DNA of 64,000 nucleotides from an uncultured Gammaproteobacteria bacterium. Lineage in GTDB: Bacteria > Patescibacteriota > Patescibacteriia > Patescibacteriales > UBA12465. The DNA is taken from positions 27,526 through 91,525 of the forward strand of contig CAZXZR010000001.1 of assembly GCA_964645545.1 (NCBI GenBank), given 5' to 3'. Numbering within the stretch: the stretch's first letter is position 1; each line of letters opens with the position of its first letter. This document shows positions 40,888-45,290 of the stretch, piece after piece. The notes below the pieces were generated by a model. It was not told where the DNA came from and did not search any database. It was given only the letters and a program-made list of their open reading frames with translations. Made by a program: the position numbers and the translations under genes.

Positions 40888-41478
40888 TTATAAATTCCTG
40901 GCCGCGAAGTCCCAATTCCAGAGATGGCGCATGACCGCGTCCACGAAGTCGCCGCGCCGGTTCTGGTAGTCAAGGTAATAGGCGTGCTCCCAAACGTCTA
41001 CGGTCAATAAAGGTTTTTCTTCTGGGGAGAAGGGGCTGTCGGCATTGGCCGTTTTAATGATTTTCAAACCGGCCGTGGTTTTGACCAGCCAGGCCCAGCC
41101 GCTACCGAATTGAGACAGGGCGGCGCTTTTAAATTCGGCGTAAAATTTTTCCAGGTCGCCGAAATCTTTCTTGATCATTTCCAAAAATTCCGGCGCCGGG
41201 GCCGAGGGATTTTTTGCCGGCCTTAGGCTGTTCCAGAAAAAATTATGATTGAAGGTCTGGGCGGCGTTATTGAAAATCGCCGCCTGCTCCGGTCGGTCCT
41301 TGGTCTGGGTAATAATTTCCTCTAAGCTCTTATTCTCCCACTCAAGGCCGCTAGTCAATTTATTCAAATTATCTACGTAAGCTTGATGGTGTTTGCCGTA
41401 ATGGAACTCTAAAGTGCGCGCGGAAATATGAGGGCTAAGCGCGTCTAAAGCAAAGGGTAAAGGTGAAAGAGTAAACAT
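40888..41478 (-). CDS. sodA: Fe/Mn superoxide dismutase.
   Basis: LEFHYGKHHQAYV and DVWEHAYYLDYQNRR. Confidence 0.9.
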   Translation of the reverse strand: MFTLSPLPFALDALSPHISARTLEFHYGKHHQAYVDNLNKLTSGLEWENKSLEEIITQTKDRPEQAAIFNNAAQTFNHNFFWNSLRPAKNPSAPAPEFLEMIKKDFGDLEKFYAEFKSAALSQFGSGWAWLVKTTAGLKIIKTANADSPFSPEEKPLLTVDVWEHAYYLDYQNRRGDFVDAVMRHLWNWDFAARNL

Positions 41479-41518
41479 AGGCGTAAAGTTAATTTTTAAA
41501 TAAGGTTAATTTTATCTA

Positions 41519-41593
41519 GACGGCCCTAATAGCTTCGGGCGAGCTCTAAATTTATTAAAGCCGGCCCGAAGTTAAATTAGGGTCGTGGCCTAT
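41519..41593. promoter_or_regulatory. Nested imperfect palindrome upstream of sodA. The outer arms are GGCCCTAAT/ATTAGGGTC and the inner arms CTTCGGGC/GCCCGAAG.
   Basis: Seen directly. Either a structured leader or a regulator binding site. Confidence 0.3.
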
Positions 41594-41665
41594 ATTATAA
41601 CAGAAAATATCTTTCTTAACCAGCCCTTTAAAAAAGATAAATTGAGCCTGGAAAGATCAATTTAA

Positions 41666-41694
41666 TTGACATTTTCAACCACTGGTGATAAAAT
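41666..41694 (+). promoter_or_regulatory. Near-consensus sigma70 promoter of small transcription unit 1.
   Basis: TTGACA, 17 nt, TAAAAT. Confidence 0.55.
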
Positions 41695-41700
41695 TAAAAC

Positions 41701-41916
41701 AGACTTTCTTTAAAATATTAAAATATCCGTCCGGAGTTTCTTTTCTCCTTTTTGGGTTAATATAATAAGTTGTATTCAAATTTTTCATTTTACCCCTTTT
41801 CTCCGGACGGACCTTATTATCATCCTGATCGTGAAGGCTCGGTATAGTTCTTTTCCGGGTCTTCCCGGCAGGCCCTTTCCTATAAGCCCCCGACGTTTAA
41901 TGAAGGGGGTTTTTCC
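41701..41916 (+). ncRNA. Candidate structured small RNA, unit 1 (about 215 nt). It has a conserved 5' motif, an 11-bp long-range helix (41726-41736 with 41800-41810) and an intrinsic terminator (CCCCC-loop-GGGGG followed by TTTTT).
   Basis: Promoter and terminator bracket the unit. There is no conserved ORF. It is a paralog of unit 2, with compensatory base changes in the helix. Confidence 0.5.
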
Positions 41917-41919
41917 TTT

Positions 41920-41948
41920 TTGACATTTTTTTGTTAAGGAGATATAAT
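41920..41948 (+). promoter_or_regulatory. Consensus sigma70 promoter of small transcription unit 2.
   Basis: TTGACA, 17 nt, TATAAT (perfect consensus). Confidence 0.6.
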
Positions 41949-41954
41949 AAAAAT

Positions 41955-42169
41955 AAGCTTAGTTCCTTTAAAATATTTAAAATATCCGCCTGGGGTTTCT
42001 TTTCAAAGTTAATAATATGGAATATAATTTGGGAAATATTAAGGTTAACCTGCATTTCTCCCCGGGCGGACCCCATGCCCGTCTGGAGCGTTGTATCTCC
42101 GGACTTGTTCCCTCTTGTTAGCTCCTACGGGTATTCGCCCCCGTCTCGCTCATCGACGGGGGCTTTTTA
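41955..42169 (+). ncRNA. Candidate structured small RNA, unit 2 (about 215 nt). It has the same 5' motif as unit 1, an 11-bp helix (41985-41995 with 42060-42070) and an intrinsic terminator (GCCCCCGTC-loop-GACGGGGGC followed by TTTTT).
   Basis: As for unit 1. The 79-aa ORF in the track (41931..42170) starts upstream of the -10 element and is probably not coding. Confidence 0.5.
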
Positions 42170-42233
42170 AAAAAGTCACCACTAATCCTTATCTTTAAAT
42201 TGACTAATTGGCCACCCGATCGGCATCGACGCT

Positions 42234-42261
42234 TGACTTTAATAAAAAAATTTAGTAATTT
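42234..42261 (+). promoter_or_regulatory. Putative promoter for the 372-aa gene.
   Basis: TTGACT, 16 nt, TAATTT. Confidence 0.35.
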
Positions 42262-42326
42262 TAAGACAGAACTTTAAATTATAAAAGCGATCGTTAACAA
42301 AAAAATAAATTAAACTTCATAAAACC

Positions 42327-43445
42327 ATGGAACCGAATATTTACTGCGATCTGGACAGGCCGGAATCGATTTACGCTATTGCCTCTATCCTGACCAGCCT
42401 GATAAATGGTGGGGATAAAAAAAATTCACTAAGAGAGGCGATAGAAAGCGGCACTTACTATGAGGAGTTTGACGAATATTATGAGGATCAAGATTTTGAC
42501 GAGGAAGATCCGGAGAAGACGGGAAGTGAAGAGCAAAAACATTTTTTCTATTGTTATTCCAGCGGCCTTAAACAGCTCTTGAAAAATCCACCGACCCGAC
42601 CGGCTTTCCTCTTAAATATCGGCCCGAAAAATAAAAAAGAAGCTGAATTGCTGGCTGAATTCGCCTACCGCTACGGCCATCGGATTATCCTCTGGCTGGA
42701 TAATCATCAATGGCCAAAAAAATTTTTAGCGTTCGCGCAAAAATGCTTACGGGATCATGGTCACGACCTGGAAATTTATTCCGAAGCTTCCTGTTTGCCA
42801 AAAATGGAAAAGTTGGGCTATCTAATCTTACCCCGTTGGTTAGTGGAAGCGGAACAAATGGCCTTAAAGCGCATGAAGGCGGCTGTACTCTATTATTATC
42901 GCGCTTATCGCGTCTGCAAAGTCGGCGATCAAATTGATCCGCAAGCCTATTTGGTCACAAAATTTTTCATCCACGCTGGTATAAGCGTTTGTCTGGATAG
43001 CCCCGATAAATTTATAGATGATAATTATATGGCCTATACCCACATGAAAGCGACGAGCAAGCGCGCGGCGGAAAAAATTCGTCATAAAAGTTTGGTTTTT
43101 CAAAACAGCCCTCGCGACCCCAAAATCGCTTACGTGAATTTAGGGCGCATCGGGCGCTTCCTTGATTTCCAAGTTTTAACCCGGGAAGCGCGCCGGAAAT
43201 ATCCCTATCTCTACATTATTCAATATCTGTATAATAAAAGGTCTTACACTAAAATCTGTTCCAAGGCCTTTGATCCCGAACTTGTCTTAAAAGTTTTGGG
43301 AAAAGACCAACTTAAATTCATTCGGGAAAATAATGCCAAGGGCCTAAAACTCATTTGGGAAAACCTGAAATTTGTTTCCCCTCCTCGTTCCCGAAACGAA
43401 CGAGGATGTTTCACGGAACCATTAAAAAGGCCTGTTCGCATATGA
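42327..43445 (+). CDS. Hypothetical 372-aa protein with a strongly acidic N-terminal segment (YYEEFDEYYEDQDFDEEDPE). No recognised domain.
   Basis: Long ORF ending in TGA, followed by an intrinsic terminator. It lies in the AT-rich island. Confidence 0.5.
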   Translation: MEPNIYCDLDRPESIYAIASILTSLINGGDKKNSLREAIESGTYYEEFDEYYEDQDFDEEDPEKTGSEEQKHFFYCYSSGLKQLLKNPPTRPAFLLNIGPKNKKEAELLAEFAYRYGHRIILWLDNHQWPKKFLAFAQKCLRDHGHDLEIYSEASCLPKMEKLGYLILPRWLVEAEQMALKRMKAAVLYYYRAYRVCKVGDQIDPQAYLVTKFFIHAGISVCLDSPDKFIDDNYMAYTHMKATSKRAAEKIRHKSLVFQNSPRDPKIAYVNLGRIGRFLDFQVLTREARRKYPYLYIIQYLYNKRSYTKICSKAFDPELVLKVLGKDQLKFIRENNAKGLKLIWENLKFVSPPRSRNERGCFTEPLKRPVRI

Positions 43446-44370: not shown

Positions 44371-44398
44371 TTGTCAAAATAGAAAGAAGTGCTAATAT
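44371..44398 (+). promoter_or_regulatory. Promoter of the large RNA candidate.
   Basis: TTGTCA, 16 nt, TAATAT. Confidence 0.45.
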
Positions 44399-44404
44399 AT
44401 AGTC

Positions 44405-44787
44405 ATGTACGTTTGGTACGTAATCCCGATCAAGTGCAAAGGGTGTCCTTGCGCAAGCAAGGACTCTTGATCGGGCCGTTGCACTTCAAACTAGAATTCA
44501 AACGGCATCCGACCCCCCGTAGAGTTTATCCTATATCCTTGGGAGAAGCGCGAAAGCCTCGGGTAAGGCTCGGCGACTCAAACAGAGCCTTAAAACCGTA
44601 CGTTGTCACGGTGGGGTGGACCGGGCACAATGACAATGTCCGAAGGGTATGAAGATTTGCAAGTCTTCATAAACTCTCGGGGCCGGAAAAGCCGAAAAAA
44701 GAAACTCTCCATTGTGTATTGTGTATCTATTTCGATTCTGGGACACTTCGGAGATAGAGCTTGCGCGCCAGTGCAAGCTCTTTTTTT
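44405..44787 (+). ncRNA. Candidate large (~385 nt) highly structured RNA of unknown family, ending in a strong intrinsic terminator (GAGCTTGC-gcgccagt-GCAAGCTC followed by TTTTTTT).
   Basis: Multiple perfect helices: a 9-bp CCGATCAAG/CTTGATCGG helix enclosing TCCTTGC-GCAA-GCAAGGA, plus GCCGTT/AACGGC and TATGAAGA/TCTTCATA. Only Arg-rich, implausible ORFs. Flanked by a promoter and a terminator. Confidence 0.45.
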
Positions 44788-44821
44788 ATATACGCTTTTC
44801 TTTAGGCTCCAAACCTTATTA

Positions 44822-45290
44822 TTACTTCATTATTACTTCCTTCACGCTTTTATAATACCGCAATAAAAGGCTGGTTAAAGCACCGCCGCCATCACAACGA
44901 TAACCGTAAGGTTCACGGAAAGCGACAATGGTCATGCCCGGTTTGATGTTGGCCGGGTGTAAAAGCAAGCGCATGTCGGTCAAGCCGACACAAGTCGCTC
45001 CCCAAATCAGAATAAGTTGGTCGCCATTACCGGTGTCGCAGAAGGCGGTAATGCCATTTTTCATATAACCTTTTTAATCTGAACTTCGTTGGCCATTATA
45101 CAAGCTAAACAACCGGTACGGGCGAGATCATTGGCTGTCATAGTAATTGGTTCCCAGCCCAGATGATAGAAAACCTCTGGCGTACCAATGAGACTGAAGA
45201 ATTATGGCTTCCCACCGGCGCCGTCATTTTCCATTTCTTCCATCACGATCGGCGGAGTGTTGATGTCCCGTTCGGGATAAAAAAAGTTAA
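44822..45290 (-). pseudogene. Frameshifted or stop-interrupted remnants of a gene of unidentified family (three minus-strand frame segments).
   Basis: Manual translation gives contiguous fragments in different frames (...YPERDINTPPIVMEEMENDGAGGKP*, ...PEVFYHLGWEPITMTANDLARTGCLACIMANEVQIKKVI*, then the 80-aa MKNGITAFCDTGNGD... ORF). Confidence 0.4.

What the first reader, a model, noticed from the sequence alone, without database searches (positions are those of the whole stretch)
41660..42175. Two tandem paralogous small RNA-like transcription units, each with a consensus promoter, a covarying helix and an intrinsic terminator
Two adjacent units of about 215 nt each begin with a near-perfect sigma70 promoter: TTGACA-17-TAAAAT for unit 1 and TTGACA-17-TATAAT for unit 2. 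Each ends with a GC-rich hairpin followed by a U-tract. They share a 5' motif (TTTAAAATATT(T)AAAATATCCG...GTTTCTTTTC). An 11-nt 5' arm pairs with a 3' arm about 65 nt downstream. In unit 1 the arms are UCCGUCCGGAG/CUCCGGACGGA; in unit 2 they are UCCGCCUGGGG/CCCCGGGCGGA. Two base pairs differ between the copies and the changes are compensatory, and a third difference leaves a wobble. That pattern is the signature of selection on RNA secondary structure rather than on protein coding. No ORF is conserved between the units; the 79-aa ORF in the track starts upstream of the -10 element. The pair sits in an AT-rich, gene-poor island next to a Cas4-like nuclease, so it could be a duplicated regulatory sRNA, the RNA half of a type I or type III toxin-antitoxin-like pair, or a cis-leader.
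Basis: seen in the sequence. Interest (0 to 1): 0.75.

Follow-up and report, generated by a model that had tools for sequence, protein, structure and literature searches.

The report
Lineage-specific tandem pair of small RNA genes
Two adjacent ~214-nt units in an uncultivated Patescibacteria genome look like a duplicated pair of non-coding small RNA genes found only in this species; this is a familiar kind of element whose function is unknown.

Summary
The described anatomy is real. There are two head-to-tail ~254-nt modules. Each has a near-consensus sigma-70 promoter, a shared 5' motif, an 11-bp long-range helix closing a 64-nt AU-rich loop, a second GC-rich hairpin and an intrinsic terminator. 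No ORF is shared and nothing in Rfam matches.

Context changes the story. The organism is a Patescibacterium. The "orphan" downstream gene belongs to a fast-evolving family with a DHH/RecJ-like fold, and in relatives that gene sits directly opposite sod with only 130-250 nt between them. The Cas4-like nuclease is a conserved core gene of these bacteria, not island cargo. The two units are therefore a species-specific insertion. They probably arose by tandem duplication of the neighbouring gene's promoter and leader, because a third, weaker copy of that promoter-leader still drives the gene.

Promoter hexamers, the 5' motif and the helix are conserved, while the rest has drifted to about 45-50% identity. 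This argues for selection on both copies. The covariation itself rests on two sequences and is only suggestive (p about 0.003-0.09).

Best reading: a pair of paralogous trans-acting small RNAs, arranged like OmrA/OmrB, with unknown targets. The toxin-antitoxin reading is not supported and the cis-leader reading finds little support. Interest is modest.

The parts
41666..41694 (+). Promoter of unit 1 (TTGACA-17-TAAAAT, with an upstream TG)
   Evidence: one of only 10 sites in the window scoring 11/12 or better. It sits where relatives have the single promoter of the gene divergent from sod.
41701..41914 (+). Predicted unit 1 RNA (~214 nt; ends inferred from the -10 element and the U-tract)
   Evidence: z-score -4.2
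41708..41745 (+). Conserved 5' block of unit 1: CUUUAAAAUAUUAAAAUAU, then the 5' arm, then UUUCUUUUC
   Evidence: D2
41726..41736 (+). Unit 1 helix P1, 5' arm UCCGUCCGGAG
41801..41811 (+). Unit 1 helix P1, 3' arm CUCCGGACGGA
41824..41872 (+). Unit 1 second hairpin. It carries the only two strain polymorphisms of the intergenic region: 41840 C>T turns a C-G pair into U-G, and 41854 T>C lies in the loop.
41884..41919 (+). Unit 1 terminator (8-pair stem, 13-nt loop, U5CCU4). It abuts the -35 element of unit 2.
41920..41948 (+). Promoter of unit 2 (TTGACA-17-TATAAT, 12/12)
41955..42168 (+). Predicted unit 2 RNA (~214 nt)
   Evidence: z-score -3.8
41966..42004 (+). Conserved 5' block of unit 2
41985..41995 (+). 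Unit 2 helix P1, 5' arm UCCGCCUGGGG
42060..42070 (+). Unit 2 helix P1, 3' arm CCCCGGGCGGA
42075..42134 (+). Unit 2 second hairpin
42137..42168 (+). Unit 2 terminator (9-bp GC stem plus U5)
   Evidence: -20 kcal/mol, z -5.0
42233..42326 (+). Third, diverged copy of the promoter and leader (TTGACT-17-TAATTT, then uaagacagaaCUUUAAAUUAUAAAAG). It is the own promoter and 5' UTR of the DHH-like gene and lacks the helix.
   Evidence: alignment; (CTTTAAAWWA at 42272); comparable promoters in relatives
42327..43445 (+). Downstream gene: a fast-evolving protein with a DHH/DHHA1 (RecJ/NrnA/Cdc45-like) fold. It is context and the probable source of the duplicated promoter-leader.

Best explanation
Units 1 and 2 are two paralogous, independently transcribed, non-coding RNA genes of about 214 nt, each ended by an intrinsic terminator. 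They are specific to this Patescibacteria species. They arose when a ~254-nt module (promoter, leader, structured body and terminator) was duplicated head to tail in the intergenic region between sod and a DHH-fold gene; its promoter and leader derive from that gene's own. Each RNA has four parts: a single-stranded AU-rich 5' leader; an 11-bp helix P1 closing a 64-nt AU-rich loop that begins with the invariant UUUCUUUUC; a GC-rich hairpin; and a terminator. Shown here: the anatomy, the absence of a shared ORF, the lineage-specific insertion, and the selective retention of promoter hexamers, 5' block and helix in both copies. Inferred: that both are transcribed and stable, and that they act in trans by base pairing through the invariant unpaired segments, in the way adjacent paralogous pairs such as OmrA/OmrB use their conserved ends. 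Targets are unknown.
For: Both promoters are consensus-grade in a genome where such matches are 12-fold enriched over shuffles. Terminators and hairpins fold significantly better than shuffles. Identity between the units is 37/40 in the 5' block and 9/11 in the 3' arm, against about 45-50% in the promoter spacer, loop and 3' half. Both -35 hexamers remain perfect and loop length is identical. All arm differences keep pairing, and the U-G pair is legal only for a plus-strand RNA. A population SNP turns C-G into U-G in hairpin 2. No ORF is shared and the minus-strand frame is broken. Relatives have only 130-250 nt and one promoter at this position. P3 is a third diverged copy of the promoter-leader.
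Against: There is no expression data. There are no homologues outside one species-level population: pattern scans of the genome, metagenome and viral collections, and a covariance model run on relatives' loci, found none. Structure conservation therefore rests on two paralogues, with p about 0.003-0.09. No target was identified; sod and the downstream gene score below average as duplex partners. The conserved 5' block lies at +8 to +45 of the promoters and could be a DNA operator rather than an RNA seed. The candidate seeds are AU-rich and would pair weakly.
Confidence: 0.5

Rival explanations
1. The units are cis-acting control modules for the downstream DHH-like gene. The tandem promoters P1 and P2 fire into terminators T1 and T2, and conditional read-through or promoter interference tunes transcription reaching the gene. 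In this reading the conserved CTTTAAAATATT(T)AAAATAT block is a DNA operator shared by P1, P2 and, in diverged form, P3.
For: All three promoters are co-directional with the gene. P1 occupies the ancestral promoter position. The promoter-leader is triplicated. Four of the 16 CTTTAAAWWA sites in the window cluster here on one strand, three of them at +11 to +18 of a -10 element. T1 is a sub-optimal terminator that abuts P2.
Against: T2 is a strong terminator. P3 lies between T2 and the ORF and lacks the helix, so the gene does not need the units. I found no anti-terminator pairing shared by the two units when inspecting the folds. An operator does not explain conservation of the 3' arm 64 nt away, nor its compensatory changes.
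Confidence: 0.2
2. The units are non-functional by-products of a tandem duplication. They may be spuriously transcribed, and the apparent covariation is chance or the result of quasi-palindrome (template-switch) correction of inverted repeats.
For: There are only two sequences. All five arm changes are transitions, and under a transition-only null the helix survives 9% of the time. No homologues exist elsewhere.
Against: Neutral parts have drifted to about 45-50% identity, while both -35 hexamers, 5/6 of the -10, the 40-nt 5' block, the helix, the loop length and functional terminators are retained in both copies. The U-G pair argues against DNA-level palindrome correction.
Confidence: 0.15
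3. The units are RNA partners, scaffolds or decoys for the neighbouring proteins (the DHH-fold protein or the Cas4-like nuclease) or for a factor that binds the DHH-gene leader, which they resemble.
For: The units are adjacent to both genes. Their 5' leader resembles the 5' UTR of the DHH-like mRNA. Many proteins with a DHH fold act on nucleic acids.
Against: Relatives carry both proteins without the units, so there is no obligate partnership. The DHH catalytic motifs are poorly conserved in the family.
Confidence: 0.07
4. The units are the RNA component of a type I or type III toxin-antitoxin system, or they are small-protein genes.
For: Tandem repetition upstream of a protein gene is superficially like ToxI. 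Unit 2 contains a 34-aa ORF that the JGI gene caller annotated.
Against: No hydrophobic small ORF is present and no ORF is shared between the units. The repeat unit is 254 nt with its own promoter and terminator, not a 34-36-nt processed repeat. The downstream protein gives no match to any toxin family in Pfam or PADLOC (only a 0.065 SoFic hit).
Confidence: 0.04

Closest known systems
OmrA/OmrB of enterobacteria (Rfam RF00079; comparison from my own knowledge)
   Same: Two adjacent, co-oriented paralogous small RNAs. Each has its own promoter and intrinsic terminator. The ends are conserved and the middle is divergent, and the conserved unpaired 5' end serves as the seed.
   Different: No sequence or covariance-model similarity. 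The units here are ~214 nt rather than ~85 nt and contain a long-range helix. The organism is a Patescibacterium, and whether it has an Hfq-type chaperone was not examined. Regulators and targets are unknown.
PrrF1/PrrF2 of Pseudomonas aeruginosa (tandem Fur-regulated sRNAs that repress sodB; from my own knowledge)
   Same: A tandem duplicated sRNA pair. Here the pair lies next to an Fe/Mn superoxide dismutase gene.
   Different: No Rfam match. No convincing complementarity to the sod 5' UTR or start region. No Fur box was looked for or seen. The proximity to sod is inherited from the ancestral position of the DHH-like gene's promoter.
Tandem riboswitch or attenuator leaders
   Same: Repeated structured elements, each ending in a terminator, upstream of and co-directional with a gene.
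   Different: Each unit has its own consensus promoter. A further promoter sits between the last terminator and the ORF. No aptamer family matches, and no conserved anti-terminator was seen.
ToxI-type antitoxin RNA arrays (type III toxin-antitoxin systems)
   Same: Tandem RNA-coding repeats upstream of a protein gene.
   Different: The repeat is 254 nt, not ~36 nt, and is transcribed independently. The downstream protein has a DHH-like fold, not a ToxN/AbiQ fold.

Membership tests
Any Rfam 15 family (4227 covariance models) | Covariance-model score at or above the family's gathering threshold | tested here: not met
   0 hits in the whole window at gathering thresholds. At E<=10 the region gives only terminator-driven sub-threshold matches, the best being 23 bits against a 49.5-bit cutoff.
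OmrA-B / PrrF families | Sequence and structure match to the family model | tested here: not met
   Neither family appears even at E<=10.
Generic bacterial sRNA gene (stand-alone promoter, non-coding body, intrinsic terminator) | Own sigma-70 promoter and Rho-independent terminator bracketing 50-400 nt | tested here: met
Generic bacterial sRNA gene | No conserved ORF | tested here: met
   Six-frame comparison of the two units
Generic bacterial sRNA gene | A discrete transcript detected | not testable with these tools
Generic bacterial sRNA gene | Secondary structure supported by covariation across homologues | tested here: inconclusive
   Only two paralogues exist. 2 compensatory pairs plus 1 wobble change in 11 pairs; p 0.0026-0.094. 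No homologues in relatives.
Type I toxin-antitoxin | Small, usually hydrophobic toxin ORF overlapped by or adjacent to an antisense RNA | tested here: not met
   No such ORF. The 34-aa ORF is hydrophilic and has no counterpart in unit 1.
Type III toxin-antitoxin (ToxIN-like) | Array of short (~36 nt) repeats followed by a ToxN/AbiQ-type endoribonuclease | tested here: not met
   254-nt modules with their own promoters. The downstream protein has no ToxN/AbiQ-type Pfam or PADLOC match and has a DHH-like fold.
Riboswitch / transcription-attenuation leader | Terminator directly precedes the regulated ORF, with a mutually exclusive anti-terminator | tested here: inconclusive
   155 nt and a separate promoter lie between T2 and the ATG. 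No anti-terminator shared by the two units was found by inspecting the folds.

The most novel reading that the evidence does not exclude
The two RNAs could be regulators of other RNAs rather than of mRNA translation. One possibility is that their invariant unpaired UUUCUUUU pairs with the A-rich single-stranded linker (44695-44705) of the neighbouring, unclassified ~385-nt structured RNA. That is the only plus-strand complement of the motif in the 64-kb window. The other possibility is that they mimic the 5' leader of the DHH-like mRNA and titrate a shared factor. Either would be a first example of an RNA-RNA or decoy regulatory circuit in candidate-phyla-radiation bacteria.
Probability: 0.08. 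Interest if true: 0.6.

Novelty: new member of a known kind. Interest (0 to 1): 0.3.

Why it matters
Regulatory RNAs of Patescibacteria (the candidate phyla radiation) appear little studied: one literature search here turned up no paper focused on them. These organisms have very small genomes. A clean case of an sRNA pair born by duplication of a gene's own promoter-leader would show how new regulatory RNAs originate in such genomes, and it would give a concrete target for metatranscriptomic validation. The element is nevertheless confined to one species, belongs to a familiar architectural class and has no known target, so its wider importance is limited unless expression and a target are demonstrated.

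Tried and rejected
1. Rfam at gathering and permissive thresholds gave nothing.
2. Exact-pattern scans of the genome, metagenome and viral collections returned only the same strain plus chance hits. L020 and L117 looked promising because their arm is identical, but the match lies inside what reads, by eye from the sequence, as a TrmH/SpoU-type methyltransferase CDS.
3. The covariance model built from the two units found no homologue in ten related loci, with filters on or off.
4. Duplex prediction against all start regions in the window showed that sod and the downstream gene are not favoured. The method was too crude to nominate targets.
5. The coding hypotheses were rejected.
6. The 'foreign island / defence locus' idea was rejected because the nuclease and the DHH-like gene are syntenic core genes. 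PADLOC gives only Cas4-like similarity for the nuclease.
7. A weak tblastn hit of a deoxynucleoside kinase to unit 1 (E 0.067, wrong strand for synteny) was dismissed.
8. An apparent strain variant downstream of unit 2 (L005/L154) proved to be an abrupt join into an isoleucyl-tRNA-synthetase-like CDS, probably an assembly chimera.
9. Single-sequence AlphaFold of the downstream protein was useless (pLDDT 37). The MSA-based model worked.

Full report
OBSERVATION. The sequence between sod (40888-41478, minus strand) and the 372-aa ORF (42327-43445, plus strand) is an 848-nt intergenic region. It holds two head-to-tail modules.

Unit 1 starts with TTGACA-17-TAAAAT (41666-41694, with an upstream TG) and unit 2 with TTGACA-17-TATAAT (41920-41948). 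Only ten sites in the 64-kb window match the consensus at 11/12 or better, against 0.8 in dinucleotide shuffles. Such matches therefore mark real promoters in this genome, and two of the ten are these.

The motif AAAATATCCGYCYGGRGTTTCTTTTC occurs only at 41720 and 41979. Each predicted ~214-nt RNA folds into four parts: an unpaired AU-rich leader; an 11-bp helix (41726-36/41801-11 and 41985-95/42060-70) that closes a loop of exactly 64 nt; a GC-rich hairpin; and a terminator (z -4.2 and -3.8). T2 is canonical (-20 kcal/mol). T1 is weaker and its U-tract runs straight into the -35 element of unit 2.

The two helices differ at three pairs: U-A to C-G, A-U to G-C, and C-G to U-G. The U-G pair would be an A-C mismatch on the other strand, which agrees with the orientation given by the promoters and terminators.

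STRENGTH OF THE COVARIATION. With only two sequences the shuffle control is uninformative. By enumeration, three random changes in one arm plus two in the other keep all 11 pairs with probability 0.0026. If only transitions are allowed, as is true of all five observed changes, the probability is 0.094.

The better argument is differential conservation. The -35 hexamers are identical, the -10 elements match at 5/6, the 5' block at 37/40 and the 3' arm at 9/11. The promoter spacer, the rest of the loop and the 3' half are only about 45-50% identical, yet they keep the same architecture and loop length.

Near-identical strains from several metagenomes differ from the window at only two positions of the intergenic region. 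Both lie in hairpin 2 of unit 1: one turns C-G into U-G and one is in the loop.

CODING. No frame is open in both units over a common stretch. The 1-nt indel inside the shared motif shifts the minus-strand frame. The 34-aa ORF called by JGI in unit 2 has no start and no counterpart in unit 1. The 79-aa ORF begins inside the spacer of promoter 2.

KNOWN FAMILIES. Rfam gives no hit in the whole window at gathering thresholds. At E<=10 it gives only terminator-driven noise.

DISTRIBUTION. The source is a Patescibacterium: the best EF-Ts relatives are 73% identical, and several are named Patescibacteria or Falkowbacteria. Exact look-ups recover the same locus at 99.9% identity or better from several samples. 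Pattern scans of the genome, metagenome and viral collections gave only this strain plus chance matches, including a deceptive 24/24 match inside what reads by eye as a TrmH-like CDS. A covariance model built from the two units finds nothing in the loci of relatives.

CONTEXT. Synteny with relatives is strong: CLIPPER-TGT-Metallophos-...-sod-...-rpsB-tsf.

The PD-(D/E)XK 'Cas4-like' nuclease has thousands of ~70%-identical Patescibacteria homologues and is syntenic. The neighbourhood is therefore not a foreign island.

In relatives, the region between sod and the divergent gene is 130-250 nt and holds one promoter of the form TTGACAttt-17-TAnnnT. Here the region is 848 nt. The two units are a lineage-specific addition.

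ORIGIN. P1 occupies the ancestral promoter position. A third promoter (TTGACT-17-TAATTT, 42233-42261) lies 65 nt upstream of the ATG. Its initial transcribed sequence (uaagacagaaCUUUAAAUUAUAAAAG) aligns with that of unit 1 (uaaaacagac...CUUUAAAAUAUUAAAAU). Four of the sixteen CTTTAAAWWA sites in the window lie in this region on the plus strand. Other strong promoters in the window lack the motif. The simplest history is tandem duplication of the gene's promoter-leader, with gain of a structured body and a terminator.

MECHANISM. I favour two stand-alone small RNAs acting in trans through the invariant unpaired segments, namely the leader and UUUCUUUUC (confidence about 0.5). The arrangement parallels OmrA/OmrB or PrrF1/PrrF2.

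Target prediction within the window was uninformative, and sod and the downstream gene are not favoured. One post-hoc lead exists. The only plus-strand complement of G(A/G)GUUUCUUUU in 64 kb lies at 44697-44707, in a predicted single-stranded A-rich linker of a neighbouring ~385-nt structured RNA. One hit against 0.37 expected is not significant on its own.

RIVALS. (1) Cis-acting tandem promoter/terminator modules, with the 5' block acting as a DNA operator (0.2). This is weakened by the strong T2, by P3, and by the conserved distal arm. (2) Neutral duplication debris (0.15). This is weakened by the selective retention pattern. (3) A protein-partner or decoy RNA (0.07). (4) A toxin-antitoxin RNA or a small protein gene (0.04). 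This last reading finds no support from the lack of a toxin ORF, of a ToxN-like protein and of short repeats.

VERDICT. The feature is real, and most probably a young, species-restricted pair of sRNA genes. It is a new member of a known kind, of modest interest, and needs transcript evidence.

Noticed in passing
window 44371-44790 (+): A further non-coding transcription unit. It has promoter TTGTCA-16-TAATAT with an extended -10 (gTGcTAATATAT) and a strong terminator at 44756-44781. The ~385-nt body is highly structured (MFE -148 kcal/mol, z -6.2). There is no Rfam match, even at a permissive threshold. Relatives carry RNA-like units with the same promoter style near sod or the nuclease (L206 ~6160-5840, L207, L208 and L212 ~5860-5410, all minus strand). 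L206, L207 and L208 share conserved blocks and compensatory changes in a long-range helix (the latter read by eye from the alignment). Homology of the window copy to those is uncertain beyond the promoter.
   Followed up: partly
L212 5395-5290 and 5245-5075 (-): Two more small units, each with a consensus promoter and a terminator, lie in tandem directly downstream of the large RNA in a relative. Tandem sRNA-like units may be common in these intergenic hot spots of this lineage.
   Followed up: no
window 41479-41605 (-): The sod gene appears to have an extended -10 promoter (TGTTATAAT, about 41602-41594) and a ~105-nt 5' UTR. The UTR contains a long imperfect hairpin (about 41521-41590). A hairpin in the same position but with different sequence is visible upstream of sod in L212. 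It may be a cis-regulatory element.
   Followed up: no
window 42327-43445 (+): The apparently orphan 372-aa protein belongs to a very fast-evolving Patescibacteria family (20-31% identity among members). It has a DHH/DHHA1 (RecJ/NrnA/Cdc45-like) fold and usually sits divergently next to sod. Catalytic DHH motifs are weakly conserved.
   Followed up: partly
window 44831-45246 (-): A pseudogene remnant of an AIRS_C-domain protein. Two tblastn segments show 69% and 53% identity to the intact gene that precedes the nuclease in L213. The 80-aa ORF annotated here is part of this remnant.
   Followed up: partly
L005 / L154 positions 1-283 (equivalent to the region downstream of window 42252): A short metagenome contig switches abruptly from the intergenic sequence into the middle of an isoleucyl-tRNA-synthetase-like CDS at an A-rich run. 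This is probably an assembly chimera rather than a structural variant.
   Followed up: partly
window 1-64000: The whole 64-kb window has no tRNA gene and no Rfam family hit.
   Followed up: no
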